64,000 nt of DNA from Candidatus Latescibacterota bacterium (GTDB lineage Bacteria > Latescibacterota > CBDEFO01). Where the stretch lies: contig CBDEFO010000007.1 of assembly GCA_965237525.1 (NCBI GenBank), positions 32,001 to 96,000 on the forward strand, in the 5' to 3' direction. Positions 9,128 to 34,769 of this stretch are shown piece by piece. The position numbers were made by a program, and so were the translations under genes. Every line of letters starts with the position of its first letter. Position 1 is the first letter of the stretch. The notes under the pieces are model-generated. The model ran no database searches. It had not been told where the DNA came from and was given only the letters and a program-made list of their open reading frames with translations.

Positions 9128-9174
9128 AAAGTAATCCTCATCTCAAGTAGATAGTAAGGAGTAGAGGTTATTTA

Positions 9175-11888
9175 TCAAATGAAATCGGTGCACTTCTCTT
9201 TCGATCTTTGATTGATCTTGAATGATAGGTTTTCGACAATCTTTGGTTTCTGTTCTTTTTCAAAATGGATGTATAATTGTTCTTCTTTTAGGTTCCATTC
9301 AGCCAGGACAAAGTAGTTGGTGTAAGAGGAGGGAAGAGATACTTTCTCATTTAGGACATCGATAAAGGCTTTATCTGTCTGTTCTGTGTCCTGTTTGACT
9401 TGTCTGATAAAATAGGTCTTAGGAATGAAATCTTTCTCGTTTGACTTCTCTTGCTTAGGTGGACGGTAGCCGGTGTATCTCTGTGATGAAAGATTAAACC
9501 ATTCTAACTTCTGATCAACTTCTTGTAAGCTTTTGAACTGAATTCTGTTCCAGAACTTCCTTGAAAATACAGAATTGTTGCCTTCTATAGATGCTTGAGA
9601 AAAGGGCCTTCTGGGAACGGCAAATATCGGAATCACTTGATTTTTCAAGAGAAACTGCATTGCTTTGCTGACATTCCTTTTACCTGAAACACTGCCAATA
9701 GTCGCCGAGCAATTGTCCACCTTAACGAAATCTGGTTTTTCAAACCTGTCAAAGAAAGACTGACACTTCTCGATAAAGTTAGTTGCTGTTTGACCGTCAA
9801 CCCGCCGAAAATACCTTAACTTAGGCTCTTTCTTAAAGGAAAATCCAACGAAGTTGACCGGCTCAGTTCTGCCGGTAAGATACTTTTTACCAATAAAGTC
9901 TGATTCTAGGACTCTGCCTCCTAAAAGATAGTAAATGGTATACTCTGGATAACAAAGATAACGAGATGCACCCTTGTTTTTACCTTTCTTCCTTCTCTGG
10001 GAAAGTCCTAAATCTGAAAGCATTCTGCCGATAGTCGGCAACGACGGAGGAGGGGTGCTAGAATATCGATTCCTCCATTCTTGTTCAATAACAGTGGCTC
10101 CTGAATAGAACTGATAAGGATCGTCCTCTAAAAGCCTTGTGAAATAGTTATGTCCCAGGCAGCGTCTGAAGCGCCGATTATGGGTCAAAGAGAAGCATAT
10201 CGTATCGTTTTGCTGTGGAATAAGCAAAATAGTCTTATCAGAGTTCTGGTCAGCAAGGAACAGGAGCTGTTTGAAGAACAGGATGCACTGTCTTTGACAG
10301 GCAGGGCACACATAGACGCTTTCCCCCTTCTTATGAAAGATACAAGCCTCTTGAGATTCTGTACTGTTGCAACAAGATTCAACTGTTCATTCAGTGAGGC
10401 TGGTCCTCTATAACGGGCTCGTCCCATACCGTGTTGTTGCCTGGCTTCAGCAAAGATATGTTCACTGCGTTTACGGAGTCTCCGGGAGAGTTTGTAGTCA
10501 GCTGTTAATGAGATAGACCGTGCATGATTTCTGGCTTTCGCCTCTCGCACTTTTCTATCCCGTTCGGCCTGAATATGTGCTGGATTTGTCTTGTTTTTCC
10601 ATGTAGGAATCGGTTCAATCTTCTCATCGGCTCGCAGAGGAATATGGGGTATGATTCCCCGGTCAAGTACATCAGCGATAAAATTACCAGAACCGTAACC
10701 GGTATCGGCACTAAGTGTCTGAATGTCTTTGGGCATGGTCTATGTTTCAAGGTCATCTACCATCTTAAGGGCACTTTCGGGCTCTGCTGTCCCTGTCGCC
10801 TGCGTGCCCTGAGTCTCAAGGATTACTCTGCTTTTTGTGTCGATCAGATCATGGCCCATAAACGAGAGAAAAGCCCCTTTGCCCTTCGATTTGCTGTATA
10901 AGCGCGCGTCGGGGTCTGTAGTCGAACGGTGTGTTTGGTTCGTCCACTTTTCACCATGAAAGTCTTTATCCTGAGGATGCCCGGACCTACCCTTTGTCTT
11001 ATCACCTTCAAAACCGATTCCCTTGAGATAATCATCAAGAGAAACAGGGGGTTCTATCGGCTCAATACTTTTCACTGAAGCATCAGCTTGTATCTGAGTG
11101 CCGTCGACACTAAGGTGTTTACCGCTCACAAGACCGACATCTATGCAACACTGGACTACCTGACGCATTATCCGTTCAAACAACCCACTGGATGCCCACT
11201 TGTGATTGCGAAGCTTGTTGATCGTGCTCCTATCCGGAACCGCATCATCAAATGTCTGATGACAAAACAACCGATATGCCGCATGCATCCCCACTTCCTG
11301 ACAGAGCCGATTCTCACTCAAATTATACAGATAGCCAATAAGGATCATTCGAACAACTAATTCAGGATCAATACCGGGTCTGCCATTGTCAGGGCAATAA
11401 CAATCTGATACAACGTCTCGTACAAATGAAAAATCAACTGCCTCATCAATCTGACGAAGGATATGATCCTCGGGAACTAAATCCTCCATCTGAAAATAGT
11501 GAAACATCGGATTTGTCTGTTCCTGCTTTTGTGGGGTCATTGTTTCCTCCATGTATAATATTATCAATAACATAATATAATACATCGGAGCTGCTTTATC
11601 AATGCTTGTTTTATACTATTTTCTGAATCTAAGGGTTTTTCACAAGGCTTCTAAGCTATGGTAAATCTCTTTGATTCTCTGTTCGTCAACTTTAGCCAAT
11701 TTTCGCCTTTTTCCTTTTGGCCAACCCCGATTATCTATGGCAAAATCCTGATCCGGAGATTTAGTCCAAGCCGTAACGAAATCATTGGAAACTCTCGCTT
11801 GTTTGATAACTTCTCGCTTTGACATTTCTTTCTTAAAATACATCTCGTTGACTTCTTGTCTTAATACGGCCAATCTCTCTTTGTCCAT
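9175..11888 (-). pseudogene. IS-B transposase (HTH plus DDE integrase core), split by IS copy 2
   Basis: MDKERLAV...YHSL joins EDDPYQ... as in the 33494 copy; ESDFIG, VDNCS, PFSQASIEG. Confidence 0.88.
10132..11650 (-). mobile_element. IS1182/IS5-like copy 2; transposase 10185-11540 has an internal TAG
   Basis: Same IRs; CTAA at 10128-10131 and 11651-11654; TAC>TAG at 10740-10742. Confidence 0.95.
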
Positions 11889-11946
11889 AGGACTCCGTAG
11901 ATTAAAGTTAAGACAATCAACTCAACTTAATCTACTAATACTCTAA

Positions 11947-13465
11947 AAGCCTTGTGAAAAACCCTTAGATTCAGAAAATAGTATAAAACAAGCATTGATA
12001 AAGCAGCTCCGATGTATTATATTATGTTATTGATAATATTATACATGGAGGAAACAATGACCCCACAAAAGCAGGAACAGACAAATCCGATGTTTCACTA
12101 TTTTCAGATGGAGGATTTAGTTCCCGAGGATCATATCCTTCGTCAGATTGATGAGGCAGTTGATTTTTCATTTGTACGAGACGTTGTATCAGATTGTTAT
12201 TGCCCTGACAATGGCAGACCCGGTATTGATCCTGAATTAGTTGTTCGAATGATCCTTATTGGCTATCTGTATAATTTGAGTGAGAATCGGCTCTGTCAGG
12301 AAGTGGGGATGCATGCGGCATATCGGTTGTTTTGTCATCAGACATTTGATGATGCGGTTCCGGATAGGAGCACGATCAACAAGCTTCGCAATCACAAGTG
12401 GGCATCCAGTGGGTTGTTTGAACGGATAATGCGTCAGGTAGTCCAGTGTTGCATAGATGTCGGTCTTGTGAGCGGTAAACACCTTAGTGTCGACGGCACT
12501 CAGATACAAGCTGATGCTTCAGTGAAAAGTATTGAGCCGATAGAACCCCCTGTTTCTCTTGATGATTATCTCAAGGGAATCGGTTTTGAAGGTGATAAGA
12601 CAAAGGGTAGGTCCGGGCATCCTCAGGATAAAGACTTTCATGGTGAAAAGTGGACGAACCAAACACACCGTTCGACTACAGACCCCGACGCGCGCTTATA
12701 CAGCAAATCGAAGGGCAAAGGGGCTTTTCTCTCGTTTATGGGCCATGATCTGATCGACACAAAAAGCAGAGTAATCCTTGAGACTCAGGGCACGCAGGCG
12801 ACAGGGACAGCAGAGCCCGAAAGTGCCCTTAAGATGGTAGATGACCTTGAAACATACACCATGCCCAAAGACATTCAGACACTTAGTGCCGATACCGGTT
12901 ACGGTTCTGGTAATTTTATCGCTGATGTACTTGACCGGGGAATCATACCCCATATTCCTCTGCGAGCCGATGAGAAGATTGAACCGATTCCTACATGGAA
13001 AAACAAGACAAATCCAGCACATATTCAGGCCGAACGGGATAGAAAAGTGCGAGAGGCGAAAGCCAGAAATCATGCACGGTCTATCTCATTAACAGCTGAC
13101 TACAAACTCTCCCGGAGACTCCGTAAACGCAGTGAACATATCTTTGCTGAAGCCAGGCAACAACACGGTATGGGACGAGCCCGTTATAGAGGACCAGCCT
13201 CACTGAATGAACAGTTGAATCTTGTTGCAACAGTACAGAATCTCAAGAGGCTTGTATCTTTCATAAGAAGGGGGAAAGCGTCTATGTGTGCCCTGTCTGT
13301 CAAAGACAGTGCATCCTGTTCTTCAAACAGCTCCTGTTCCTTGCTGACCAGAACTCTGATAAGACTATTTTGCTTATTCCACAGCAAAACGATACGATAT
13401 GCTTCTCTTTGACCCATAATCGGCGCTTCAGACGCTGCCTGGGACATAACTATTTCACAAGGTTT
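11947..13465 (+). mobile_element. IS1182/IS5-like copy 3, inserted in the left end of IS-B
   Basis: CTAA at 11943-11946 and 13466-13469; right IR has one substitution (TTTCACAAGGTTT); flanks rejoin to match 33392-33450. Confidence 0.95.
12057..13412 (+). CDS. DDE transposase (IS1182/IS5-like), intact
   Basis: Near-identical to the copy 1 transposase. Confidence 0.9.
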   Translation: MTPQKQEQTNPMFHYFQMEDLVPEDHILRQIDEAVDFSFVRDVVSDCYCPDNGRPGIDPELVVRMILIGYLYNLSENRLCQEVGMHAAYRLFCHQTFDDAVPDRSTINKLRNHKWASSGLFERIMRQVVQCCIDVGLVSGKHLSVDGTQIQADASVKSIEPIEPPVSLDDYLKGIGFEGDKTKGRSGHPQDKDFHGEKWTNQTHRSTTDPDARLYSKSKGKGAFLSFMGHDLIDTKSRVILETQGTQATGTAEPESALKMVDDLETYTMPKDIQTLSADTGYGSGNFIADVLDRGIIPHIPLRADEKIEPIPTWKNKTNPAHIQAERDRKVREAKARNHARSISLTADYKLSRRLRKRSEHIFAEARQQHGMGRARYRGPASLNEQLNLVATVQNLKRLVSFIRRGKASMCALSVKDSASCSSNSSCSLLTRTLIRLFCLFHSKTIRYASL

Positions 13466-13527
13466 CTAAACAAAGATCAAATTAGGTGCACCGATTTCAT
13501 TTGATATTCAACCAGTAAACAGTAGAT

Positions 13528-13663
13528 AGGGCACCTCACTTAGAAGGAATTGTCAGACAGGAATGTCTGACCCACCTTTTTATATATGTTGGTAGAACAG
13601 ACATTCTTGTCTGTTCTTATCTGTTCTATTTGGATCTCTATAATCCTATTTTACACCGATACT
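13528..13663. repeat. REP doublet (REPIN-like) unit
   Basis: GTCAGACAGGAATGTCTGACCCACC...GGTAGAACAGACATTCTTGTCTGTTC; repeated at 19577-19720 and inverted at 26965-27030. Confidence 0.8.
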
Positions 13664-13812
13664 TCACACTCACTCCAAGAACTAAACATAACTCTACAGA
13701 TCGCAAAATCCAAATAGAAAATTGCATTCCTCAATTTTCAGTTGACTTTGCTTCGAGCGTTTCTTAAATTCTTCGAGAACCGAGAAGAGAGAGGACTTAC
13801 GTTCTTTTCTAA

Positions 13813-15331
13813 AAGCCTTGTGAAATAGTTATGTCCCAGGCAGCGTCTGAAGCGGCGATTATGGGTCAAAGAGTAGCATATCGTATCGTTTTGCTGTGGA
13901 ATAAGCAAAATAGTCTTATCAGAGTTCTGGTCAGCAAGGAATAGGAGCTGTTTGAAGAACAGGATGCACTGTCTTTGACAGACAGGGCACACATAGACGC
14001 TTTCCCCCTTCTTATGAAAGATACAAGCCTCTTGAGATTCTGTACTGTTGCAACAAGATTCAACTGTTCATTCAGTGAGGCTGGTCCTCTATAACGGGCT
14101 CGTCCCATACCGTGTTGTTGCCTGGCTTCAGCAAAGATATGTTCACTGCGTTTACGGAGTCTCCGGGAGAGTTTGTAGTCAGCTGTTAATGAGATAGACC
14201 GTGCATGATTTCTGGCTTTCGCCTCTCGCACTTTTCTATCCCGTTCGGCCTGAATATGTGCTGAATTTGTCTTGTTTTTCCATGTAGGAATCGGTTCAAT
14301 CTTCTCATCGGCTCGCAGAGGAATATGGGGTATGATTCCCCGGTCAAGTACATCAGCGATAAAATTACCAGAACCGTAACCGGTATCGGCACTAAGTGTC
14401 TGAATGTCTTTGGGCATGGTGTATGTTTCAAGGTCATCTACCATCTTAAGGGCACTTTCGGGCTCTGCTGTCCCTGTCGCCTGCGTGCCCTGAGTCTCAA
14501 GGATTACTCTGCTTTTTGTGTCGATCAGATCATGGCCCATAAACGAGAGAAAAGCCCCTTTGCCCTTCGATTTGCTGTATAAGCGCGCGTCGGGGTCTGT
14601 AGTCGAACGGTGTGTTTGGTTCGTCCACTTTTCACCATGAAAGTCTTTATCCTGAGGATGCCCGGACCTACCCTTTGTCTTATCACCTTCAAAACCGATT
14701 CCCTTGAGATAATCATCAAGAGAAACAGGGGGTTCTATCGGCTCAATACTTTTCACTGAAGCATCAGCTTGTATCTGAGTGCCGTCGACACTAAGGTGTT
14801 TACCGCTCACAAGACCGACATCTATGCAACACTGGACTACCTGACGCATTATCCGTTCAAACAACCCACTGGATGCCCACTTGTGATTGCGAAGCTTGTT
14901 GATCGTGCTCCTATCCGGAACCGCATCCTCAAATGTCTGATGACAAAACAACCGATATGCCGCATGCATCCCCACTTCCTGACAGAGCCGATTCTCACTC
15001 AAATTATACAGATAGCCAATAAGGATCATTCGAACAACTAATTCAGGATCAATACCGGGTCTGCCATTGTCAGGGCAATAACAATCTGATACAACGTCTC
15101 GTACAAATGAAAAATCAACTGCCTCATCAATCTGACGAAGGATATGATCCTCGGGAACTAAATCCTCCATCTGAAAATAGTGAAACACCGGATTTGTCTG
15201 TTCCTGCTTTTGTGGGGTCATTGTTTCCTCCATGTATAATATTATCAATAACATAATATAATACATCGGAGCTGCTTTATCAATGCTTGTTCTATACTAC
15301 TTTCTGAATCTAAGGGTTTTTCACAAGGCTT
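13813..15331 (-). mobile_element. IS1182/IS5-like copy 4
   Basis: IRs intact; CTAA at 13809-13812 and 15332-15335. Confidence 0.95.
13866..15221 (-). CDS. DDE transposase (IS1182/IS5-like), intact
   Basis: Near-identical to copies 1 and 3. Confidence 0.9.
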   Translation of the reverse strand: MTPQKQEQTNPVFHYFQMEDLVPEDHILRQIDEAVDFSFVRDVVSDCYCPDNGRPGIDPELVVRMILIGYLYNLSENRLCQEVGMHAAYRLFCHQTFEDAVPDRSTINKLRNHKWASSGLFERIMRQVVQCCIDVGLVSGKHLSVDGTQIQADASVKSIEPIEPPVSLDDYLKGIGFEGDKTKGRSGHPQDKDFHGEKWTNQTHRSTTDPDARLYSKSKGKGAFLSFMGHDLIDTKSRVILETQGTQATGTAEPESALKMVDDLETYTMPKDIQTLSADTGYGSGNFIADVLDRGIIPHIPLRADEKIEPIPTWKNKTNSAHIQAERDRKVREAKARNHARSISLTADYKLSRRLRKRSEHIFAEARQQHGMGRARYRGPASLNEQLNLVATVQNLKRLVSFIRRGKASMCALSVKDSASCSSNSSYSLLTRTLIRLFCLFHSKTIRYATL

Positions 15332-15373
15332 CTAATGCTATCAATCTTTGAGGAAAGAGAGGAGGACATAGAA

Positions 15374-16171
15374 ATGCCTGCAGAAAAAAAGAGGATAGGC
15401 ATAATTGGATATGGACAGATCGGCTCCTACGTTTACGAACAGATCACCCAAAGACCGCAAATGGGGCTTGAGATAGCATTTGTCTATAATCGATCTCCCG
15501 AACGAGTCAAAAATCTTCCTGATGAGGTCATCTTGGATGAGCTGGAAGATTTTGAAAAGACGAATCCCGATCTGGTTGTGGAGTTGGCGCATTCTGACAT
15601 CACCAGAGAGTACGGTCAGATGATATTAGAAAGCACAGATTACTTAATACTCTCGGTAACAGTTATGGCTGACAGAGAACTTGAGGAGCACCTCTTTGAA
15701 GTGTGCCAGAAAAATGGCACTTGCCTTTACATACCACACGGAGGAGTAATCGGATTAGATACGATAAATGAAGGGCGAGAGGTGTGGGATGAAGTCAGGG
15801 GACTGATGAGGAAGAATCCCGAGAATCTGGACTTCAGTAGAACTGATCTTGACCCCGATAGCATTACATCAGCGACAGTCTTGTACGAGGGTCCCGTGAG
15901 GGATATATGTCCCAGGTTTCCCAGAAATGTTAACACTCTAGCTGCGCTTGCGCTGGGAGGGATAGGATTCGATCGGACGCACGCAACTTTGATAGCAGAT
16001 CCCTCTCTGGACGTGGCCATCGTCGAGGTGTACGCTTACAGTGATGAGGTCAACTGCGAGATAAAGCGGATAGAGCCGATCAAGGGTGTCACCGGAACGT
16101 TCATATTGACTTCTACTTTGGAGACGATAAAAAGGGTCGAGGTGGCAAAAAGCGGTATTCAGATCTGTTAG
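15374..16171 (+). CDS. Aspartate dehydrogenase (NadX)-like protein
   Basis: GIIGYGQIG, VVELA, IPHGGVIGLD, FPRNVNT; GAGGAGG RBS. Confidence 0.8.
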   Translation: MPAEKKRIGIIGYGQIGSYVYEQITQRPQMGLEIAFVYNRSPERVKNLPDEVILDELEDFEKTNPDLVVELAHSDITREYGQMILESTDYLILSVTVMADRELEEHLFEVCQKNGTCLYIPHGGVIGLDTINEGREVWDEVRGLMRKNPENLDFSRTDLDPDSITSATVLYEGPVRDICPRFPRNVNTLAALALGGIGFDRTHATLIADPSLDVAIVEVYAYSDEVNCEIKRIEPIKGVTGTFILTSTLETIKRVEVAKSGIQIC

Positions 16172-17721
16172 AGGATCGGTCCGAGTATCCACGGGTTGAA
16201 TTCCTCTTCACCGACTCCGTTTAGTTCGCTCTTGGTCCTCTTGCCTGATGCGACTTCTATTATCTCGTTGAGTATTATATGTCCTGCGTCTTGAACCTCC
16301 ACTCCTTCGAGTACAACTCCGGCGTTTATGTCCATATCGTCTATCATGTGATTATAGAGTCTTGAGTTGGTAGCTATCTTAATGGACGGTGAGGGCTTAA
16401 ACCCAAAGACAGAGCCTCTTCCCGTCGTAAAGGTCACTATGTTAGCGCCTCCTGCTACCATCCCTGTTACAGAGACAGGATCGTAGCCGGGGGTATCCAT
16501 TACGACGAATCCTTTCTGTGTGACCTGCTCGGCGTAGAGGTAGACTTCGTTCAGAGGAGTGGTGCCGCCCTTTGCTATGGCTCCGAGAGATTTTTCGTAG
16601 ATGGTGGTGATCCCACCTTCTTTATTTCCCGGTGCGGGGTTGTTGTTGATCTCCGCTCCGAGGACGGACGTGTAATGCTCCCACCATTTGATCCTTTCGA
16701 CGAGCTTCCTGCCGACCTTTTCGTTTTTTGCCCTCTTGATCAGCAGGTGTTCTGCACCGTATATCTCCGGCGTTTCCGCAAGAATGACTGTGCCTCTGTA
16801 TCTTACCAGTTCGTCCGCTGCAGCGCCTAAGGCTGGATTTGCGGTGATGCCGGAGTAGGCGTCGCTCCCACCGCACTCTGTGGCGAGCACGAGTTTGGAT
16901 ATAGGCTGCTCTGTTCTTCTTGCGCGGTCGGCTTCGGGAAGGAGTTCAAGTATGGCTTTACTTGCGTTTTCGATAGTCTTTCTAATTCCTCCGCTCTCCT
17001 GAATTGTGATGATTTTGGGGTATCGCTTTTGGGGAGACTCTATCTGTAAGAGTCCCTGGGATTCTACGAGGTCTTTTGCCTGGTTCGATTCGCAGCCGAG
17101 CCCGACTATTATATAGCCTGCGACGTTAGGATGTCTGGCAAATCCGGCAAGTGTCCTTTGAAGCTGTCGATGATCCTCGCCGCCGATTTTCAATGCACAG
17201 CCGTTTTTGTGCGTGATGGGTATCACGCCGTCCACGTTCGGATAATCTTTCAGTATTTCGTCCGTAAAGCGGTCACAGATGTAGCGGGACGTAGAGCTTG
17301 AACAGTTGACTGTAGAGGTGACCGCAAGGTAGTTTCTGGTTCCGACCTTTCCGTCCTCCCTTTTGTAGCCCATGAAGGTCCTCATATCCTCTTGTGGATA
17401 GAAGTCATCCGGAGCGATCTCTGTGGCGTATTCGTAGGATTGGTCAAGCTCCTGGACTTCCAGGTTGTGAGTGTGAACGTGTTCGCCTCTATAGATGTTC
17501 TCTGTCGCAAATCCTATTATCTGTCCGTACTTCCTGACCGGGATGCCTTTGGAGATATCGCAAAGGGCTATCTTGTGTCCGGGCAAAATGTTGACTTTGG
17601 GGACGATATTTTTTCCGTCGTATTTGAGCGTCACTTCAGGGGTGATGACTTCTTTTGCGACAGCTACGTCGTCTCCCTCTTTAAGGATAATGGCTTTTTC
17701 TATAAGATCGTAGGATGGCAT
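16168..17721 (-). CDS. UxaA/GarD-family altronate or galactarate dehydratase
   Basis: SAF domain (GHKIA, KYGQIIG, HVHTHN), GTRNY, ECGGSD, NNPAPGNKEGG. Confidence 0.9.
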   Translation of the reverse strand: MPSYDLIEKAIILKEGDDVAVAKEVITPEVTLKYDGKNIVPKVNILPGHKIALCDISKGIPVRKYGQIIGFATENIYRGEHVHTHNLEVQELDQSYEYATEIAPDDFYPQEDMRTFMGYKREDGKVGTRNYLAVTSTVNCSSSTSRYICDRFTDEILKDYPNVDGVIPITHKNGCALKIGGEDHRQLQRTLAGFARHPNVAGYIIVGLGCESNQAKDLVESQGLLQIESPQKRYPKIITIQESGGIRKTIENASKAILELLPEADRARRTEQPISKLVLATECGGSDAYSGITANPALGAAADELVRYRGTVILAETPEIYGAEHLLIKRAKNEKVGRKLVERIKWWEHYTSVLGAEINNNPAPGNKEGGITTIYEKSLGAIAKGGTTPLNEVYLYAEQVTQKGFVVMDTPGYDPVSVTGMVAGGANIVTFTTGRGSVFGFKPSPSIKIATNSRLYNHMIDDMDINAGVVLEGVEVQDAGHIILNEIIEVASGKRTKSELNGVGEEEFNPWILGPIL

Positions 17722-17746
17722 TCTTTTTTCTCCTTATGTAAATCTA

Positions 17747-17775
17747 TTGACAAAGGTTTAATAAATCTTTATACT
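17747..17775 (+). promoter_or_regulatory. Sigma70 promoter of the MNT-HEPN operon
   Basis: TTGACA-17 bp-TATACT. Confidence 0.75.
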
Positions 17776-17828
17776 TCCCCACTATGGGAGGTTGTAGCTT
17801 TTACTACAGACAGCTTGGGAAAAGACAT

Positions 17829-18212
17829 ATGATGAAAGCCCGAAAAACTGAGAAAGTCAACGAAGAGTTGATCCGAAGGGTAACTGAGCGTATCGTCAAG
17901 GAATATGACCCTGATAAGATCATTTTATACGGGTCGTTAGCCTGGGGAAAATCTAACAAAGATTGTGACCTTGATCTTTTCATTATCAAGGATTCTCCTT
18001 TGAGACGAGATCTAAGGTCTACGGAGATATCTAAGCTCTTCTTTCCCCGCCGATTCGGATTGGATGTGCTTGTCTATACTCCAGAGGAGATAGAAAGACG
18101 TTTAAAGTTAGGCGATTTTTTTGTCAAGAGGATTATAGAACACGGAGTAGTCCTGTATGACCGAAAAACATCTGATACTGGTTGGGGAATGGATCTACAA
18201 GGGCAACAATGA
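17829..18212 (+). CDS. Minimal nucleotidyltransferase (MNT) antitoxin
   Basis: IILYGSLAWG...DCDLDL, DVLVYTPEE; start codon uncertain. Confidence 0.85.
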   Translation: MMKARKTEKVNEELIRRVTERIVKEYDPDKIILYGSLAWGKSNKDCDLDLFIIKDSPLRRDLRSTEISKLFFPRRFGLDVLVYTPEEIERRLKLGDFFVKRIIEHGVVLYDRKTSDTGWGMDLQGQQ

Positions 18213-18555
18213 CCTGCGAAACGCTCAAATAGTCATACAAGATGACGATCCTCCTACCGATACTGTCTGTTTTCATTGTCAGCAGGCGGTGGAAAAGTAC
18301 CTGAAAGCTTTTCTCATCTCTAACGCCCAGGAACCTCCCAGGCACCACGATCTGATCGAACTTTTGTCTTTGTGCATCGATATTGATAAAGACTTCCACA
18401 AAATACGGGACGAAGCTGAACTCCTCACAAAATATGGACTTATACCGCGTTATCCGTCTGACCCTCCTATCTATTATGCCAAATATGAAGCTGAAGAAGC
18501 AATAGAAAAGGCTAAGATCGCTGTGGATTTTGTAACCTCCAAGATTAAAAGGTAA
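18157..18555 (+). CDS. HEPN-domain toxin
   Basis: CFHCQQAVEKYLKAFL, HDL, RYP; overlaps the MNT gene. Confidence 0.88.
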   Translation: MTEKHLILVGEWIYKGNNDLRNAQIVIQDDDPPTDTVCFHCQQAVEKYLKAFLISNAQEPPRHHDLIELLSLCIDIDKDFHKIRDEAELLTKYGLIPRYPSDPPIYYAKYEAEEAIEKAKIAVDFVTSKIKR

Positions 18556-18629
18556 CTATTTGTATCCGAGCACCACGAGGACGGTTTTCTTTTTGTTCTC
18601 CTTATGTAAATCTATTGACAAAGGTCTAA

Positions 18630-19514
18630 TTACCAACGGATATTCTTAATGGCGTCGCGGGCCTGATTTATATAAAGCCACCATTTATCGAGCCAAGGTG
18701 TATGTATCCCCTTGGCATGAGCGGATTCAACCAAGATTGCGCGGATACTCCTTAATTCATGGCTGATTGGATTATCGGATTCTGGCCCTTTGAAACGAAG
18801 ATTGTCGGCTGCGAGGAGATCCAGCATCGTTTCAATTCTAGGAGCTAATAGACTTCCTGTCGGCGTCTGTACAGCCGCATAATGCAGCTACTTCGCATTG
18901 GGATACGGCTTCCCATCGAGGATCATAGCCGCTTTAAGGGCATGGGTTAGGACTTCTGTAAGGGACACAAGGACTGCAACAGCATCCCTGCGCTCCATAG
19001 GATTATCACCGGCTCGATGATAACCACGCATTTCGACATAGTGATAAAAGAAGAATGCAAAGCGAGCCTCATCGCGCATTGGCTTACGAGCACGGGCGAT
19101 CAACTCTTTAACATCGTCTGTGTTATCTATGATGATCTTTGCCTGTTGGAGTTCATAGATCAGCGGCATAACGCCCCTTTTTAGACGATCTGAAAAATCG
19201 TCTACAGACTCAGCATTCAGATGCCCGGGTTTTCCCTCAAGCTCAAAATCGAAAAACCGCGTCTCAGAGATAGAATCGAGTTCAGCAAGGTCTGTATCCG
19301 CTTGGAGAAACAACAGATCGAGGTCCGAAAACGGATCATCGATTCCCCATGTGGTTGAGCTATGAAGAACTACAGCCGCTCTACTATAAAATCTTCCAAG
19401 GACAGAGTGTTCATTAAGGAATTCCGGTAGAAACTTATATAATCTGTCTGTCCAATAACTCTCGGTATCTTTTTCCCGGGTTAGCTCTGTCATTAAGATA
19501 CTCATCTTCTTCAT
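18630..19514 (-). pseudogene. Nucleotidyltransferase-like (DUF4037-like) protein with an in-frame TAG
   Basis: HSSTTWGIDDPFSDLDL; PYPNAK-TAG-LHY continues in frame into ORF 18630-18827. Confidence 0.6.
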
Positions 19515-24638: not shown

Positions 24639-24654
24639 CGGCATGTGTTTTGCG
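24639..24654 (+). promoter_or_regulatory. Sigma54-type -24/-12 promoter upstream of groES
   Basis: CGGCATG-TGTT-TTGCG, GG-N10-GC spacing. Confidence 0.55.
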
Positions 24655-24752
24655 CTGTGATAATCGTAGCACGTAAGCGAGCCATCAAAGATATAAAGAG
24701 GAATTCCGCCATTGTGGCCATGTCTCAAACAATTTAACAATGGAGGTTAAGT

Positions 24753-25040: not shown

Positions 25041-25057
25041 GGGAAGGAGGAAAATAA

Positions 25058-26686
<1,629 letters not shown>

Positions 26687-26689
<3 letters not shown>

Positions 26690-26862
26690 GTAAGTAGACA
26701 GTAGCCCCCGATTGAGTTTCTCGGGGGTGGGCAGTAGACAGGGCAAAACCAAGTAGACAGCAAACAGCAAACAGTAGACAGGGAAGGCACTGCCACGTCC
26801 CACCCCATCCAAGTGCTTGTCCCCCTTACCAAGGGGGACCACAGGGGGTCCCAGTAGACGGG
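26687..26862 (+). repeat. AGTAGAC heptamer arrays interleaved with palindromes
   Basis: TAAGTAAGTAGACAGTAG, CAGTAGACAGGG, AAGTAGACAGCAAACAGCAAACAGTAGACAGGG; palindromes at 26705-26727 and 26820-26838. Confidence 0.8.
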
Positions 26863-26913
26863 GCACAGCCTCTCATCCCTGTATGCTGTCTTAATAGAAT
26901 CAGGGTAGAAGGG

Positions 26914-26950
26914 AAGCCCGGTGTTATCCAAAGCGCCGGGCTTTTTGTTT
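26914..26950 (+). terminator. Intrinsic terminator after groEL
   Basis: AAGCCCGGTG...CGCCGGGCTT stem followed by TTTGTTT. Confidence 0.75.
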
Positions 26951-26964
26951 GCCCGCAACTGGAC

Positions 26965-27030
26965 AGGACAGACAAGAATGTCCGTCCTACCAACATATTA
27001 ACTCTTGTGGGTCACACATTCCTGTCTGAC
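26965..27030. repeat. REP doublet, third (inverted) copy
   Basis: GGACAGACAAGAATGTCCGTCCTACC...GTGGGTCACACATTCCTGTCTGAC. Confidence 0.75.
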
Positions 27031-27052
27031 ACCGTTGAGGTCGATAGAATCA

Positions 27053-27195
27053 GAGATTGCTTCCCCCGGATAGATTCAATCGCAGGCGCTCGCAATGACG
27101 GTGTAGGGGGCTCGCATGAAAGCTATCGGCTTGAAATATGACATTGTCCACGCTGGGGTCATTGCGAGGGGGATGAAATCCCCCGAAGCAATCTC
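27053..27195. repeat. Inverted pair of GAGATTGCTTC...CTCGCAATGAC palindromic elements
   Basis: 27053-27099 and its reverse complement at 27158-27195. Confidence 0.8.
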
Positions 27196-27249
27196 GCTCT
27201 ATTTTGTACGAGAAATACAACCTTCCCGAATCACAAGTTAAAACTCTTG

Positions 27250-27278
27250 TTGACATTTACACTAAAGTTTTATATATT
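27250..27278 (+). promoter_or_regulatory. Sigma70 promoter, probably the ancestral prfB promoter
   Basis: TTGACA-17 bp-TATATT. Confidence 0.65.
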
Positions 27279-27402
27279 CACTGCAAATTTGTGCCTTTAG
27301 CGAGTCCCGACTTCTTATGAGCTATGGACAGGAGGATCACAAAAATACTTATTAAGATGTGACCCCTGTCACAAGCAAGATAAAGTTGATTTGGTATATT
27401 AA

Positions 27403-28921
27403 AAGCCTTGTGAAAAACCCTTAGATTCAGAAAGTAGTATAGAACAAGCATTGATAAAGCAGTTCCGATGTATTATATTATGTTATTGATAATATTATAC
27501 ATGGAGGAAACAATGACCCCACAAAAGCAGGAACAGACAAATCCGATGTTTCACTATTTTCAGATGGAGGATTTAGTTCCCGAGGATCATATCCTTCGTC
27601 AGATTGATGAGGCAGTTGATTTTTCATTTGTACGAGACGTTGTATCAGATTGTTATTGCCCTGACAATGGCAGACCCGGTATTGATCCTGAATTAGTTGT
27701 TCGAATGATCCTTATTGGCTATCTGTATAATTTGAGTGAGAATCGGCTCTGTCAGGAAGTGGGGATGCATGCGGCATATCGGTTGTTTTGTCATCAGACA
27801 TTTGATGATGCGGTTCCGGATAGGAGCACGATCAACAAGCTTCGCAATCACAAGTGGGCATCCAGTGGGTTGTTTGAACGGATAATGCGTCAGGTAGTCC
27901 AGTGTTGCATAGATGTCGGTGTTGTGAGCGGTAAACACCTTAGTGTCGACGGCACTCAGATACAAGCTGATGCTTCAGTGAAAAGTATTGAGCCGATAGA
28001 ACCCCCTTTTTCTCTTGATGATTATCTCAAGGGAATCGGTTTTGAAGGTGATAAGACAAAGGGTAGGTCCGGGCATCCTCAGGATAAAGACTTTCATGGT
28101 GAAAAGTGGACGAACCAAACACACCGTTCGACTACAGACCCCGACGCGCGCTTATACAGCAAATCGAAGGGCAAAGGGGCTTTTCTCTCGTTTATGGGCC
28201 ATGATCTGATCGACACAAAAAGCAGAGTAATCCTTGAGACTCAGGGCACGCAGGCGACAGGGACAGCAGAGCCCGAAAGTGCCCTTAAGATGGTAGATGA
28301 CCTTGAAACATAGACCATGCCCAAAGACATTCAGACACTTAGTGCCGATACCGGTTACGGTTCTGGTAATTTTATCGCTGATGTACTTGACCGGGGAATC
28401 ATACCCCATATTCCTCTGCGAGCCGATGAGAAGATTGAACCGATTCCTACATGGAAAAACAAGACAAATTCAGCACATATTCAGGCCGAACGGGATAGAA
28501 AAGTGCGAGAGGCGAAAGCCAGAAATCATGCACGGTCTATCTCATTAACAGCTGACTACAAACTCTCCCGGAGACTCCGTAAACGCAGTGAACATATCTT
28601 TGCTGAAGCCAGGCAACAACACGGTATGGGACGAGCCCGTTATAGAGGACCAGCCTCACTGAATGAACAGTTGAATCTTGTTGCAACAGTACAGAATCTC
28701 AAGAGGCTTGCATCTTTCATAAGAAGGGGGAAAGCGTCTATGTGTGCCCTGTCTGTCAAAGACAGTGCATCCTGTTCTTCAAACAGCTCCTGTTCCTTGC
28801 TGACCAGAACTCTGATAAGACTATTTTACTTATTCCACAGCAAAACGATACGATATGCTACTCTTTGACCCATAATCGGCGCTTCAGACGCTGCCTGGGA
28901 CATAACTATTTCACAAGGCTT
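27403..28921 (+). mobile_element. IS1182/IS5-like copy 5; transposase 27513-28868 has an internal TAG
   Basis: IRs intact; TTAA at 27399-27402 and 28922-28925; TAG at 28311-28313. Confidence 0.95.
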
Positions 28922-28943
28922 TTAAGTTGTGCTAATTTCCTAA

Positions 28944-30589
28944 CCCGAATAATTAACGAGAAAAGGCAGGGCATTAATTAAGGGATTGAATTGTATTATA
29001 GTTAGGTAGTATAATTACAAAAACAATCCCGAAAATTAAAGAGGCACTGCCATGAATGAAGATATACAAGTTTCGCTTAAGTTGAAAGACGTTTCTGGCA
29101 AGAAAGTGACTGTAGATTTCACCGGTGGAGATGTGACATCCGATGCTGGAGTCCTTGCTTTGAAAGAAGTTGCAAAGAAAATTGGGATCATAGAACACCT
29201 TGCAGAGGCTATAGGTGATGATCGTCATCAAAGCTATGTACAGCATCATATCGGGGAACTCCTGAATCAACGTATTTTTCAGATTATATGTGGTTATGAA
29301 GATACTAACGATTCAGATTATCTGAGGGCCGATCCTGGGTTCAAGGTCTCCTGCGACAGGCTCCCCTCTGAGGCCCATTTGGCAAGTCAGCCCACTATGA
29401 GTCGTTTTGAAAACTCCATCTGCTCCAAAGACCTCTACAAAATAGAAGAGGTATTCGTAGATCGGTTCATAGATTCATATGAAAAACCACCAAAGGGTAT
29501 CATTCTGGATATTGATGATACTGATGATATTACCCACGGCGCCCAACAGTTGCAATTGTTCAATGCTTACCACAATGACTACTGCTTTATGCCCCTTTTT
29601 ATCTTTGAGGGGAAAAGCGGTAAACTTATAACGAGCATCTTACGTCCTGGCAGACGACCTTGTGGCAGAGAAATTCGTGCGATAATCAAAAGATCATCAA
29701 AAGAATAAGAGCCGCCTGGCCCAAAGTGGGCATCATCATTCGTGGTGATTGTCACTTTGCTTCTTGTGAACTCTACCTGTGGTGCGAAAGCCATAATGTC
29801 CATTATCTCGTGGGTCTTTCAAAGAACGCCGTACTTAAAGTATACCCTGAATCTGCTCTGAAGACAGCACATCAGAGATATTCTGATTCTGGCAAGAAGG
29901 TACGTGTTTTCAAAGAAGTAGGCTATCAGGCTAGGAGCTGGCACAAACCAAGAAGAGTGATAATAATGGCCGAAGTCTCTGATATGGGCGAGAATCTCCG
30001 CTTTGTGGTCACCAGTCTGGAAAGCTCCCAACCATCGTTCCTCTATGAAACGGCCTACTGTGGCCGAGGACAGATGGAGAACTTTATCAAGGAGCACAAA
30101 GTCGCTCTCAAAAGTGGCCGTACATCGTGCCACAGCTTCCTGGCAAACAGTCTTCGCCTTATGCTTCACAGCGCCGCCTATGTTATTCTGCATAGGTTCA
30201 CAGAGAAAGCTCTTGCTGGCACCTCCTTTGCCAATGCTCAATTCGATACCATAAGGCTGCGATTACTCAAGATCGGGGCGGAAGTTCGGGAGCTAAAGAC
30301 TAAAGTGCATTTCATATTGCCCTCTTCCTACCCATTGAAAGATGTCTTTGCAACGATGTGCAATAAAATAGCTTTCATAACATAGAGTAAGACTTATCTG
30401 ATTTAATTACATAGAGATACTCTTTCACGCAAGGAATAAGCATGTCCTTTTCGGCACTATACGCCAAATCTGATCAGTATTCCAAAGATGCTTTGCCACT
30501 TGCTGTCGCCTTGCACCGCTCAAATATCCAGTTACCCTTTATTCTGAGGTCAAATTCATTTTTTAAACGAAGTTTATGAATTAATCGGG
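28944..30589 (+). mobile_element. IS1380-family element
   Basis: IRs CCCGAATAATT / AATTAATCGGG; CTAA at 28940-28943 and 30590-30593. Confidence 0.88.
29052..30385 (+). pseudogene. IS1380 transposase, frameshifted
   Basis: FTGGDVTSDAG, GYEDTND, ASQPTMSRFEN, LDIDDT, RGD, YCGRGQMENFIKE; one A short in the run 29688-29691. Confidence 0.88.
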
Positions 30590-30611
30590 CTAAAGACCGT
30601 AAGGAGGCAAA

Positions 30612-31698
30612 ATGGGAGACGAACTGCTGGAAAGTAAACTCGGAGAATGCAGGAAGAAACTGGACAATCTAAGGAGTTATCTTTGACTTAGGTTCTAAGG
30701 AGGAGGAAATATCCCGGTTAGAATCCAAAATGTCAGAGCCGAACTTCTGGAACGACAGAGAGGCAGCTCGAAAGACGATAGACCGCTTCAACGTCCTTAA
30801 GAAGCCCGTTTTGAAGTGGCGGACCTTAAACTCTGAGTACGAAGATCTGGAGGTGCTCTATCAGCTTGATGTTGAAAAGCACGAAGTGGAGGCGGAACTC
30901 GGTAAATTAGAAGATGGCATAGAGGAGTTAGAGCTCCAAAGGATGCTGGGCGGTCAGGACGACCCAAGGGACGCCATACTTACGATCCATCCTGGCGCGG
31001 GAGGGACCGAATCTTCCGACTGGGCCAATATGCTGATGAGGATGTACCTCAAATGGATTGAGAATCACGGCTTTAAAAGCAGCATTTTAGATATTCAGCC
31101 CGGGGACGAGGCAGGCATCAGAAACGCCACTATCGAAGTTAAAGGGGAACACGCCTACGGCTATCTCAAGGCCGAAGCGGGCGTGCATCGGCTCGTAAGG
31201 ATTTCTCCCTTCGACGCCAACAGCAGGAGACATACATCTTTTGCCTCCGTCTTTGTCTATCCCGAAGCCGACAGCGAAATCGAGGTAGACATAAACGACA
31301 AAGATCTTAAGATAGAGACCTTTCGCTCAAGCGGAGCAGGGGGCCAGCACGTCAACAAGACTGACTCTGCAATTAGGATAACTCATCTTCCGACTGGCAT
31401 TACAGTTCAGTGTCAGGCGGAAAGGTCTCAGCACAGGAACAAAAGCACGGCGATGAAGGTACTTATGTCGAGGCTCTATCAGCACTATAAGGAGGAGGAA
31501 AAAAAGAAGATGGAGAAGATAGAAAGCCAAAAAAAGAGCATAGAGTGGGGAAGTCAGATAAGATCTTACGTTTTCCATCCCTACAATATGGTCAAGGATC
31601 ACCGAACAGGGGTCGAGACGAGCAATACTCAATCTGTCATGGACGGAGAAATAGACGAGTTTATAAGGGAATATCTTATTCAGTACCCAAATGAGTAA
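30612..31698 (+). CDS. prfB: Peptide chain release factor 2 with programmed +1 frameshift
   Basis: ATG 30612; internal SD AGGAG then CTT TGA C (30681-30687); the +1 frame contains SPF and GGQ. Confidence 0.97.
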
Positions 31699-31744
31699 AC
31701 TGGTACTCCATACCTTTCACAATATAGATTTTCTAAACGAATCC

Positions 31745-31773
31745 TTGACTTTGTGTCAAGGTTTTCTTATATT
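31745..31773 (+). promoter_or_regulatory. Sigma70 promoter of lysS
   Basis: TTGACT-17 bp-TATATT. Confidence 0.6.
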
Positions 31774-31878
31774 TTATGGGCTTTAAGAGTCCCTAGTACT
31801 TGCACCATTCTGATCCGTCCGCATGGGGGTATCGAAGAACTTTTGGGCGCAAAACGAAGATTTTGACAGGAGACTGGA

Positions 31879-33375
31879 TTGAACGAAGAGAGGCACCTGA
31901 TAAAACAGAGGCTCGAAAAGTTATTGAAGATTAAGGAGAAAGGAGTAAATCCTTATCCGTACAGATTTGAAGTAACACACTTATCCTCTGAAGTTATTAG
32001 GAACTCAGAAAATCTGGAGACGTCAAAATCAGCAGTGGCAGTAGCAGGAAGGTTGATGTCTATCAGAAGCCATGGCAAGACCGGGTTTGGACACATTCAG
32101 GACGAAGACGGAAAGATTCAGATATACTTCCGCAAGGACACCCTGGGCGACGATCAGTTCGGTCTGTATGAGCTCTTTGACATAGGCGATATTGTAGGCA
32201 TAAGAGGAAAGGTCTTTAAAACCCGCACGGGAGAGATAACCTTATCGGCTCAGGAAGTGGAGCTTCTCTGCAAATCCATCCGCCCTCTGCCCATTCCCAA
32301 GGATAAGATCCAAGATGGAAGGAGAATAGTCTATGACGAATTCTCCGACAAGGAGCAAAGATACCGTCAACGCTACCTGGATGTGATACTAAACCCCGAC
32401 GTTCGGGAGGTCTTCTTAAAGCGGGATCGGATCATCTGGGAGTTGGAAAAGTATCTCCGCGAAAAGGGGTTTGTAAGGATGGAAACACCGATACTTCAGC
32501 CGCTCTACGGCGGAGCATCGGCAAGACCCTTTACCACCTATCACAACGCCCTTGGTCTTACGCTCTACCTTCGAATCTCCGACGAACTCTATCTCAAACG
32601 TCTCATTGTGGGGGGCTACGGTAAGGTCTACGAGTTTTGCCAGGATTTCCGAAACGAGGGGATGGATCGGGAGCATAATCCAGAATTCACACTTTTGGAA
32701 CTATATCTGGCTTACGCGGACTACAACGATATCATGGAGATAGCTGAGGAGATGATCTCTCAGACTGCGGAGGAGGTAGTTGGCTCCATGCAGGTCGAAT
32801 ACCAGGGCCAAAAGATAGATTTTTCGCCTCCCTGGAATAGAGTCAAGATGTCTGACGCGATTAGGGAGCATACGGGACTCGATCTATTTGGCTCTTCAGA
32901 GGGGGACTTGAAGAGTATTTGTAAGGACCTGAATGTGGAGGTAGATTCGAGCATAGGAGTCGGTAAGATGATAGATAAGATCTTCGACCAGTACGTCAAA
33001 GATCACCTCGTACAGCCCACGTTTATAACGGACTATCCCCTGGAGACGGCGCCCCTTGCCAAAAGGCACAGAGATGACCCCCTCTTAGCAGAGCGCTTCG
33101 AGCCTTTTGTCTGTGGAATGGAGATAGGAAACGCCTTTTCGGAACTGAATGACCCGATAGACCAAAAAAAGAGGTTCGAAGAGCAGATGAGGCTGAAAGA
33201 GCAGGGCGATGAGGAGGCTCAAGTCCTGGACGAGGACTATATAAAGGCGATGGAGTACGGGATGCCTCCCACTGGAGGATTGGGAATAAGCATAGATAGA
33301 TTGGTGATGTTGCTCACAGACTCTCCATCTATAAGAGACGTTATCTTATTTCCTCAGATGAGGCCCGAAGGGTAA
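31879..33375 (+). CDS. lysS: Lysine--tRNA ligase (class II)
   Basis: YRQRYLD, GGASARPF, FRNEG..HNPEFT, GMPPTGGLG. Confidence 0.97.
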   Translation: MNEERHLIKQRLEKLLKIKEKGVNPYPYRFEVTHLSSEVIRNSENLETSKSAVAVAGRLMSIRSHGKTGFGHIQDEDGKIQIYFRKDTLGDDQFGLYELFDIGDIVGIRGKVFKTRTGEITLSAQEVELLCKSIRPLPIPKDKIQDGRRIVYDEFSDKEQRYRQRYLDVILNPDVREVFLKRDRIIWELEKYLREKGFVRMETPILQPLYGGASARPFTTYHNALGLTLYLRISDELYLKRLIVGGYGKVYEFCQDFRNEGMDREHNPEFTLLELYLAYADYNDIMEIAEEMISQTAEEVVGSMQVEYQGQKIDFSPPWNRVKMSDAIREHTGLDLFGSSEGDLKSICKDLNVEVDSSIGVGKMIDKIFDQYVKDHLVQPTFITDYPLETAPLAKRHRDDPLLAERFEPFVCGMEIGNAFSELNDPIDQKKRFEEQMRLKEQGDEEAQVLDEDYIKAMEYGMPPTGGLGISIDRLVMLLTDSPSIRDVILFPQMRPEG

Positions 33376-33391
33376 ACAAGTAGACAGTAGC

Positions 33392-34695
33392 GGTTGAATA
33401 TCAAATGAAATCGGTGCACCTAATTTGATCTTTGTTTAGAGTATTAGTAGATTAAGTTGAGTTGATTGTCTTAACTTTAATCTACGGAGTCCTATGGACA
33501 AAGAGAGATTGGCCGTATTAAGACAAGAAGTCAACGAGATGTATTTTAAGAAAGAAATGTCAAAGCGAGAAGTTATCAAACAAGCGAGAGTTTCCAATGA
33601 TTTCGTTACGGCTTGGACTAAATCTCTGGATCAGGATTTTGCCATGGATAATCGGGGTTGGCCAAAAGGAAAAAGGCGAAAATTGGCTAAAGTTGACGAA
33701 CAGAGAATCAAAGAGATTTACCATAGCTTAGAGGACGATCCTTATCAGTTCTATTCAGGAGCCACTGTTATTGAACAAGAATGGAGGAATCGATATTCTA
33801 GCACCCCTCCTCCGTCGTTGCCGACTATCGGCAGAATGCTTTCAGATTTAGGACTTTCCCAGAGAAGGAAGAAAGGTAAAAACAAGGGTGCATCTCGTTA
33901 TCTTTGTTATCCAGAGTATACCATTTACTATCTTTTAGGAGGCAGAGTCCTAGAATCAGACTTTATTGGTAAAAAGTATCTTACCGGCAGAACTGAGCCG
34001 GTCAACTTCGTTGGATTTTCCTTTTTAAGAAAGAGCCTAAGTTAAGGTATTTTCGGCGGGTTGACGGTCAAACAGCAACTAACTTTATCGAGAAGTGTCA
34101 GTCTTTCTTTGACAGGTTTGAAAAACCAGATTTCGTTAAGGTGGACAATTGCTCGGCGACTATTGGCAGTGTTTCAGGTAAAAGGAATGTCAGCAAAGCA
34201 ATGCAGTTTCTCTTGAAAAATCAAGTGATTCCGATATTTGCCGTTCCCAGAAGGCCCTTTTCTCAAGCATCTATAGAAGGCAACAATTCTGTATTTTCAA
34301 GGAAGTTCTGGAACAGAATTCAGTTCAAAAGCTTACAAGAAGTTGATCAGAAGTTAGAATGGTTTAATCTTTCATCACAGAGATACACCGGCTACCGTCC
34401 ACCTAAGCAAGAGAAGTCAAACGAGAAAGATTTCATTCCCAAGACCTATTTTATCAGACAAGTCAAACAGGACACAGAACAGACAGATAAAGCCTTTATC
34501 GATGTCCTAAATGAGAAAGTATCTCTTCCCTCCTCTTACACCAACTACTTTGTCCTGGCTGAATGGAACCTAAAAGAAGAACAATTATACATCCATTTTG
34601 AAAAAGAACAGAAACCAAAGATTGTCGAAAACCTATCATTCAAGATCAATCAAAGATCGAAAGAGAAGTGCACCGATTTCATTTGATAAATAACC
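33392..34695 (+). mobile_element. IS-B copy 2 (IS481-like); transposase 33494-34686 frameshifted
   Basis: 28-bp IRs; two extra T at 34022-34026 relative to copy 1. Confidence 0.9.
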
Positions 34696-34769
34696 AGTAG
34701 TCAGTAAACAGGGAAAGGCAAAGACAGTAGGGGTGAGGTTACCTCGCCCAGTAGACAAGAGCACCTCAT

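What the first reader, a model, noticed from the sequence alone, without database searches (positions are those of the whole stretch)
9145..34713. A 1.3-kb integrase-core IS that lands in AGTAGAC heptamer arrays
Seen: both copies sit inside heptamer arrays, in opposite orientations relative to the array. Copy 1 reads AGTAGAT AGTAAGG AGTAGA [IS] AGTAAAC AGTAGAT AGGG and copy 2 reads AGTAGAC AGTAGC [IS] AGTAGTC AGTAAAC AGGG. The unit before the IS is 6 nt in both, like a 6-bp duplication with one mismatch. The ends are GGTT...AACC 28-bp IRs rather than the TGT...ACA typical of IS481, and the second D to E spacing is 43 aa. The arrays cover well under 1% of the window. Inference: a repeat-targeting IS using these arrays as safe havens.
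Basis: partly seen in the sequence, partly recalled or inferred. Interest (0 to 1): 0.7.

Follow-up and report, generated by a model that had tools for sequence, protein, structure and literature searches.

The report
Jumping gene reading seven-base TA rhythm
This small bacterial jumping gene, with about 52 copies in one genome, inserts where the letters TA recur every seven bases; its transposase likely reads that spacing itself, which would explain why a third or more of its copies sit in the host's short seven-base repeat arrays while the rest sit in ordinary DNA.

Summary
The element is real: 1302 bp, 28-bp GGTT...AACC inverted repeats, a 396-aa DDE transposase, 52 insertions in the genome. 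Both window copies are dead: copy 2 is frameshifted, and copy 1 is split by two IS1182-like elements. It is not array-specific: 17 (strict) to 22 (loose) of 52 copies lie in AGTAGAC arrays and 30 do not. The bias is still strong: arrays hold 0.4-0.9% of TA sites, and a co-resident IS has 0 of 273 ends there. Sites outside arrays give the rule: a 6-bp TA-centred duplication inside a palindromic YA-N5-TA-N5-TR target, i.e. TA every 7 bp. Homologues from many other hosts share it (YTAR-N3-YTAR-N3-YTAR), and some sit in other heptamer arrays. Within arrays, 15 of 15 hits are at a TA flanked in register on both sides (10.7% available). A same-genus genome without the intact IS has the same arrays, so they pre-exist. 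The motif explains about 20-fold of an 80-fold enrichment; 2-4-fold is unexplained. The transposases form their own clade between IS481 and IS21 and fail the IS481 cut-off. Repeat-targeting ISs are known; I found no report of period-7 readout. The scan had no earlier hit on this protein.

The parts
33392..34695 (+). IS copy 2 (1304 bp; the 1302-bp element plus 2 T), 28-bp IRs at 33392-33419 and 34668-34695
33494..34686 (+). Transposase gene of copy 2, frameshifted at about 34022 (183-aa and 181-aa ORFs instead of 396 aa)
33379..33391 (+). Left part of the heptamer array just after the lysS stop codon (33375); left duplication copy AGTAGC at 33386-33391
   Evidence: empty allele in G001 and in runs X15/X16
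34696..34713 (+). Right part of the array (AGTAGTC AGTAAAC AGGG); right duplication copy AGTAGT at 34696-34701
9166..13513 (-). IS copy 1 in three pieces: 13465-13513 (left end), 11650-11947 and 9166-10131; transposase gene interrupted
10130..11655 (-). IS1182/IS5-like element inserted in copy 1's transposase gene (ends approximate)
11945..13468 (+). Second IS1182/IS5-like element, inserted near nt 44-49 of copy 1 upstream of its ORF (ends approximate)
9146..9165 (+). Array half at copy 1's right end, upstream of a motB-like gene; in G001 it is contiguous with the left flank of copy C6:334912
13514..13531 (+). Array half at copy 1's left end; its hexamer (TTTACT in IS orientation) equals the right hexamer of copy C6:334912

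Best explanation
This is a recently expanded 1302-bp insertion sequence with a DDE transposase that makes a 6-bp TA-centred duplication at sites carrying further YA/TR steps 7 bp away on each side; the transposase dimer likely reads this 16-18-bp palindromic TA lattice directly, so the host's pre-existing heptamer arrays, which repeat TA every 7 bp, would be near-ideal targets without being recognised as repeats. Shown: the element, its copy number, the 6-bp duplication, the extended motif at non-array sites and across homologues, the array enrichment, and that arrays pre-exist. Inferred: direct readout by the transposase (the central TA as a kink point, outer TA steps touched by the predicted C-terminal beta domain); purifying selection adding to the intergenic bias; and later recombination or conversion between copies spoiling many duplications.
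For: 98 of 101 ends have TA at positions 3-4 of the flanking hexamer. Of 26 orthologue-level empty sites in G001, 20 differ by exactly +6 bp, 5 by 6 plus or minus a repeat unit (+13, -1, -2), and 1 is unclear (my count). Non-array half-sites have A at -6 in 48 of 56 (background 0.26, p 2e-20), and 26 of 30 in coding non-array sites alone (p 7e-12). Homologue flanks: T 65 and A 67 of 68 at the centre; among 61 TA-centred half-sites, A-6 56, T-7 50, Y-8 53, R-5 56. A matrix trained only on non-array sites ranks the canonical triple array site at the 99.9th percentile of 226,232 TA sites and raises the expected array share from 0.39% to 8.6%. Within arrays, 15 of 15 hits (strict) and 16 of 20 (loose) are at a TA with in-register TA on both sides, against 10.7% and 5.9% available. 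Orientation in arrays is 12 same, 10 opposite, as expected for a palindromic target. The co-resident IS1182-like element has 0 of 273 ends near arrays. The predicted fold matches IstA, TnsB, MuA and integrases, with a C-terminal beta-rich region.
Against: The matrix under-predicts: 8.6% (bootstrap 2.7-19.5%), or 16% intergenic-only (6-30%), against 17 of 52 = 33% observed (p 9e-7 and 0.002). Among perfect TA-N5-TA-N5-TA sites arrays are 95 of 629 available but 16 of 18 hits, so more than the three TA steps matters. Only 2 of 26 non-array sites have full TA on both sides (YA/TR on both sides: 12 of 26). The gene caller was crude (it labels 41% of array TA sites as coding). No second multi-copy genome was found to repeat the test. 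Homologue flanks come from short-read contigs and are often chimeric (8 of 35 two-ended loci show a perfect 6-bp duplication). There is no biochemical evidence.
Confidence: 0.68

Rival explanations
1. True array targeting: besides a loose motif, the transposase or a host protein bound to the heptamer/hairpin element recognises the repeat element itself (sequence, secondary structure or bound factor), as REP-targeting ISs do; non-array hits are spill-over.
For: A 2-4-fold excess remains over the non-array matrix; 16 of 18 perfect triple-TA hits are arrays. Older relic relatives also abut arrays (5 of 11 relic or unpaired ends listed for G000, by eye). This element tolerates G at -1 (14 of 42) where homologues avoid it (5 of 122; p 4e-6), matching the host's GTAG unit. 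10 of 61 homologue flanks are heptamer-periodic against 5.5% of control sites (p 0.002).
Against: 30 of 52 insertions are outside arrays and carry the same motif. Insertion falls in the arms at any internal unit and in both orientations, not at one fixed position. Host units differ between genomes while the TA lattice is constant. The training set excluded array-like sites, which biases the matrix downward.
Confidence: 0.2
2. Selection only: insertion is broad at TA sites and array copies survive because they are harmless.
For: 15 of 29 non-array insertions are in called genes against 73% expected; arrays often follow stop codons (43 of 217 within 40 nt, against 1.6% for random positions).
Against: Arrays are only about 1% of intergenic TA sites. 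The IS1182-like element with about 137 copies under the same selection has 0 of 273 ends near arrays. Selection would not pick internal in-register units.
Confidence: 0.05
3. The IS family builds the arrays: a 6-bp duplication plus a one-base excision footprint (terminal C/G) gives a 7-bp unit.
For: AGTAGA + C + AGTAGA is the canonical unit and the IS ends in C. Arrays and IS relatives were found only in this genus within the phylum sample.
Against: G001 has 124 array matches without an intact IS. There is no excess of hexamer-N-hexamer at TA outside the array family (2.3 per 10,000 against 2.1-2.8 for control dinucleotides). Among 21 G000-side 7-bp indels in 1.05 Mb aligned, the only exact tandem duplications are two array-unit gains. 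Other hosts' units have A or T as seventh base.
Confidence: 0.03

Closest known systems
IS481 family (IS481, ISLxc2; NCBIfam NF033577)
   Same: Single ORF with N-terminal HTH region and integrase-like DDE core; best HMM hit for 53 of 53 homologues; 6-bp duplication with central TA (NCTAGN for ISLxc2, PMC2516522 passages; mostly 6 bp, PMC10045372 passages).
   Different: 44 bits against a cut-off of 224; GGTT...AACC ends instead of TGT...ACA; own long-stem clade in a quick tree; extended +/-7 TA motif, which the passages I read do not describe for IS481.
REP-targeting ISs (IS1397, ISKpn1, IS621, ISPsy8, ISPpu9/10; the IS481-family element of Pseudomonas fluorescens SBW25)
   Same: An IS concentrated in a host intergenic repeat family (PMC1525189 and PMC11708052, passages).
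   Different: Those insert at a fixed position of a palindromic REP, often with all copies; here 33-42% of copies, at any internal unit of a tandem heptamer arm, explained mostly by a periodic motif; no Y1/RAYT gene in G000.
Tn5/IS50 target choice
   Same: [quoted passage not shown]
   Different: IS4-family enzyme with a 9-bp duplication; no natural host array of matching period is described in the passage read.
IS21 IstA / TnsB / MuA
   Same: Top structural matches; profile similarity equal to IS481's (E 1e-12 against 2e-13).
   Different: No IstB ATPase in the 1302-bp element; simple 28-bp IRs beginning GG.
ISGme8/ISGme9 of Geobacter metallireducens
   Same: ISs found at paired tandem octanucleotide-repeat sites (PMC2700814, passages and figure legends).
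   Different: Inserted at a fixed distance from the repeats, not inside them; family and mechanism not given in the text read; supplements not read.
Intergenic heptamer repeats (TAACTGA of Beggiatoaceae; STRR of cyanobacteria, the latter recalled)
   Same: Short intergenic 7-mer tandem sets, a few hundred per genome, function unknown (PMC4679880, abstract).
   Different: Different unit, often followed by a hairpin and sometimes an inverted arm, biased to gene 3' ends; no IS link in the abstract read.

Membership tests
IS481 family | Transposase passes the curated IS481 model (NF033577, 224 bits) | tested here: not met
   44 bits for P0001; best E 1e-17 among 53 aligned homologues; 21 more distant relatives reach at most 73 bits
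IS481 family | TGT...ACA termini | tested here: not met
   GGTT...AACC in all G000 copies; a GGTT-starting IR (searched for as such) at one or both ends of 44 of 45 homologue loci; two over-cut-off IS481 loci from the phylum start TGT
IS481 family | Single ORF with RNase H-fold DDE core | tested here: met
   D156/D217/E261 invariant and aligned with the IS481 profile; fold search
IS481 family | Mostly 6-bp target duplication, TA-centred | tested here: met
   28 of 49 two-ended copies perfect; +6 bp at 20 of 26 empty sites
IS481 family | Nests phylogenetically among IS481 members | tested here: inconclusive
   25 family sequences form one branch (SH-aLRT 95) apart from sampled IS481-like and IS21 proteins; quick tree, backbone unresolved, references from one phylum, 5 long rows probably mistranslated, no ISfinder references
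IS21 family | istA-istB operon with an AAA+ helper, about 2-2.6 kb | tested here: not met
   One ORF fills nt 103-1293 of 1302; 32 bits against a cut-off of 160
IS3 family | orfA/orfB frameshift, TG...CA ends, 3-5-bp duplication | tested here: not met
   41 of 43 uninterrupted copies have one 396-aa ORF; 6-bp duplication
REP-targeting IS | Essentially all copies at a fixed position of a REP | tested here: not met
   30 of 52 outside arrays; variable unit and orientation
Named ISfinder element or group (including ISNCY groups) | Match to an ISfinder entry | not testable with these tools
   ISfinder not available; no Pfam hit for P0001, no plasmid hit, no PDB sequence hit

The most novel reading that the evidence does not exclude
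An unclassified, widespread IS group has evolved to home to bacterial and archaeal intergenic heptamer arrays by reading their period rather than their sequence (YTAR every 7 bp), so it finds harmless gene-end sites in any host that has such arrays, and it retunes its inner preference to the host's unit (GTAG in this genome, YTAR elsewhere).
Probability: 0.3. Interest if true: 0.7.

Novelty: new variant of a known kind. Interest (0 to 1): 0.5.

Why it matters
It gives a simple, testable rule for how a minimal transposase can favour a host repeat family with no guide RNA, helper protein or repeat-specific motif: the spacing of its target contacts equals the repeat period. It defines an unannotated IS group (855 homologues, no Pfam call) with a readable target code, and links a mobile element to intergenic heptamer arrays, whose origin and role are open. 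It does not explain what the arrays are for, and repeat-targeting ISs as such are well known.

Tried and rejected
Arrays as IS footprints: rejected. Arrays as general IS hot spots or selection alone: rejected by the IS1182-like control; a first version of that control had wrong element boundaries and was discarded (top). Arrays as RAYT-served REPs: no PF01797 match in G000. A circle junction (right end joined to left end) was not seen in contigs of 4 runs; contigs drop rare forms, so this is no evidence. Whether copy 2's altered flank base is polymorphic between strains was not resolved. No second multi-copy genome: 2 of 401 and 2 of 168 genomes searched had a match, none besides G000 multi-copy and intact. 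The YTAR x3 count in five other hosts had an uninformative control (the reversed pattern scored higher); it shows only that heptamer arrays with that core exist there. No hits: PDB by sequence, plasmids, earlier findings by sequence. The protein atlas gave no result. The careful tree did not finish; the quick tree is reported. Four homologue loci were left out of alignment A2 after a stop-codon error. Literature searches found no paper describing an IS that inserts into heptamer arrays or a 7-bp-periodic TA target; the library lacks most subscription journals and ISfinder.

Full report
Copy 2 is window 33392-34695 (+) and copy 1 is 9166-13513 (-), with the quoted flanks and 28-bp GGTT...AACC inverted repeats, 25 of 28 bases matching. 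Neither copy is intact. Copy 1 is cut into three pieces by two 1.53-kb IS1182/IS5-like elements. Copy 2 has two extra T that truncate the ORF.

Copy number and protein. The genome has 50 left and 51 right ends, giving 52 insertions. Of 43 uninterrupted copies, 41 encode a 396-aa protein; the 1302-bp copies other than one with indels differ from the commonest sequence by 0-6 bases, so the expansion is recent. The protein has no Pfam hit. It scores 44 bits on the IS481 model (cut-off 224) and 32 on IS21 (cut-off 160). D156, D217 and E261 are invariant in 53 homologues. The predicted structure (pLDDT 84) matches IstA, TnsB, MuA and retroviral integrases. There are 855 homologues and 517 clusters at 50% identity. 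In a quick tree of 61 proteins, 25 family members form one branch (SH-aLRT 95) apart from sampled IS481-like and IS21 proteins. Profile similarity to the two families is about equal; the backbone is unresolved and five reference rows are probably mistranslated. It works like an IS481/IS21-type DDE element but fails the IS481 score and terminus tests.

Where it lands. 98 of 101 ends have TA at positions 3-4 of the adjacent hexamer, and 28 of 49 two-ended copies have a perfect 6-bp duplication. G001 (same genus, about 95% identical in aligned blocks) has only relics of the element. I held about 1.58 of its 4.54 Mb and found joined empty sites for 29 of 51 sites tried; 3 of these are low-identity paralogues. 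Of the other 26, 20 differ from G000 by exactly +6 bp, 5 by 6 plus or minus a repeat unit, and 1 is unclear (my count). Contigs of runs X15 and X16 show the same empty allele at copy 2.

Array share. With at most 1, 2 or 3 mismatches over hexamer plus neighbouring unit, 14, 17 or 22 of 52 insertions are in AGTAGAC arrays, against 0.17%, 0.39% or 0.93% of 226,232 TA sites. The loose set includes two doubtful cases (C7:9706, C3:246985) and misses one degenerate array (C6:431783). Thirty copies are outside arrays, 15 of 29 scored in called genes. It is specific: the IS1182-like element has 0 of 273 ends near arrays, this IS 26 of 101.

The arrays are host features. There are 221 in G000 against 15 expected. 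The 12-mer occurs 138 times in G000, 124 times in G001 and at most once in each of 39 other genomes. Arrays are present at the empty orthologues of most array insertions; one, C4:358347, lacks the whole repeat element in G001. 43 of 217 lie within 40 nt after a stop codon on the AGTAGAC strand, against 8 on the other strand and 1.6% for random positions. No RAYT-type gene was found, and there is no sign of 6+1 footprints.

The rule. Non-array sites give a palindromic motif: central TA, A at -6 and T at +7, pyrimidines at -7 and -8. A at -6 occurs in 48 of 56 half-sites (background 0.26) and in 26 of 30 from coding sites alone. The motif is TA repeated at a 7-bp period, which is what a TA-containing heptamer array offers. 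Homologues from other hosts agree: T 65 and A 67 of 68 distinct flanks at the centre, and among 61 TA-centred half-sites A-6 56, T-7 50, Y-8 53 and R-5 56, i.e. YTAR-N3-YTAR-N3-YTAR. Ten of those 61 are clearly heptamer-periodic (control 5.5%, p 0.002), with other units such as TTTCTAA, ATTAGCA and TTTAGAT; most are not. Inside G000 arrays, 15 of 15 strict hits fall on a TA with an in-register TA on both sides, though such sites are 95 of 884. Orientation is 12 same and 10 opposite.

What the rule does not explain. A matrix trained only on non-array sites puts the canonical array site at the 99.9th percentile and predicts 8.6% array hits (2.7-19.5%), or 16% among intergenic sites (6-30%), against 33% observed. 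Arrays are 95 of 629 perfect triple-TA sites but 16 of 18 hits there. The residual 2-4-fold may come from the biased training set, selection, non-additive contacts or real recognition of the repeat element. This element tolerates G before the central TA (14 of 42) where homologues avoid it (5 of 122). That fits the host's GTAG unit and hints at tuning, but it is one lineage and the hosts differ in base composition.

Imperfect duplications. They are commoner in arrays (14 of 21) than elsewhere (7 of 28; p 0.008). Some are flank swaps between copies: C1:101582 with C3:369764, and window copy 1 with C6:334912, whose halves are contiguous in G001. In others synteny is intact but one copy of the hexamer is altered. 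By my reading it is the left copy, at or including the base next to the IS, in 8 of 9 polarisable cases, and three share the same foreign hexamer. Gene conversion between copies (internal SNPs occur in mixed combinations) or retention of donor flank bases from a circle junction could do this; I could not separate them.

Comparison with what is known. IS481-family elements have TGT ends and NCTAGN duplications (PMC2516522, passages) and mostly 6-bp duplications (PMC10045372, passages). An IS481-family element targets REPs in P. fluorescens SBW25 (PMC11708052, passages). REP targeting spans five IS families, and Tn5 prefers clusters of overlapping consensus sites (PMC1525189, passages; original not held). 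ISGme8/9 sit near tandem octamer sites (PMC2700814, passages; supplements not read, and they may bear on this). Intergenic heptamer sets of unknown role are described (PMC4679880, abstract). ISs are generally biased to intergenic DNA (PMC13548323, passages). Nine searches found no report of insertion into heptamer arrays or of a period-7 TA target; ISfinder could not be checked.

Verdict. A real, unclassified IS481/IS21-like element whose extended target motif has the same period as its host's heptamer arrays. That most likely accounts for most of a strong but partial array bias. New variant of a known kind; interest 0.5.

Noticed in passing
window 2446-3974, 10130-11655, 11945-13468, 13808-15336, 27399-28925; genome-wide: An IS1182/IS5-like 1.53-kb element with about 137 copies (138 and 135 ends) and a YTA-flanked target; several copies carry in-frame stops; it repeatedly inserts at the same two spots of the studied IS (nt 44-53 and 337-341).
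   Followed up: partly
G000 C6:330154, C6:334912, C7:9706, C6:306899, C6:435794, C7:65392, C7:179981, C8:509751: The left copy of the target duplication is altered next to the IS while the right copy matches the G001 empty allele (8 of 9 polarisable cases); three share the foreign hexamer ACTACA. Unexplained.
   Followed up: partly
G000 C3:106472-106992, C4:279678, C6:357127, C8:34903-35387, C8:1336076-1336596, C8:1566017-1567789; L012, L013: About 500-bp internally deleted relics (MITE-like) of older sister elements, some shared with G001, several abutting AGTAGAC arrays; L013 is a 273-bp derivative with a 7-bp duplication.
   Followed up: partly
window 26693-26890 and 35204-35266: Composite repeat elements: AGTAGAC arms, AGGG...CCCT hairpins and nested CCCCGATTGAATCTATCGGGG-type palindromes; the nested palindrome varies between G000 and G001 and may be a separate mobile repeat.
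   Followed up: no
window 29052-30385: A split DDE_Tnp_1_4 (IS1380-like) transposase gene; G001 synteny breaks beside it at about 30590.
   Followed up: no
window 8445-9127: motB-like gene split into plug and OmpA-domain ORFs, directly downstream of copy 1's rearranged flank.
   Followed up: no
G000 C4:72839, C8:144688, C8:990184, C8:1042684, C8:1535339; G001 multiple sites: Other IS481-like transposases below the family cut-off; G001 has its own multi-copy one (11 or more near-identical matches), whose targets were not examined.
   Followed up: no
G045 (L013 host), G041 (L006 host): These hosts carry heptamer arrays with a YTAR core (TTAGCTT, TTAAGAT, TTAGAAA, TTAGGTT); G045 has several relic ends of the family.
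   Followed up: partly
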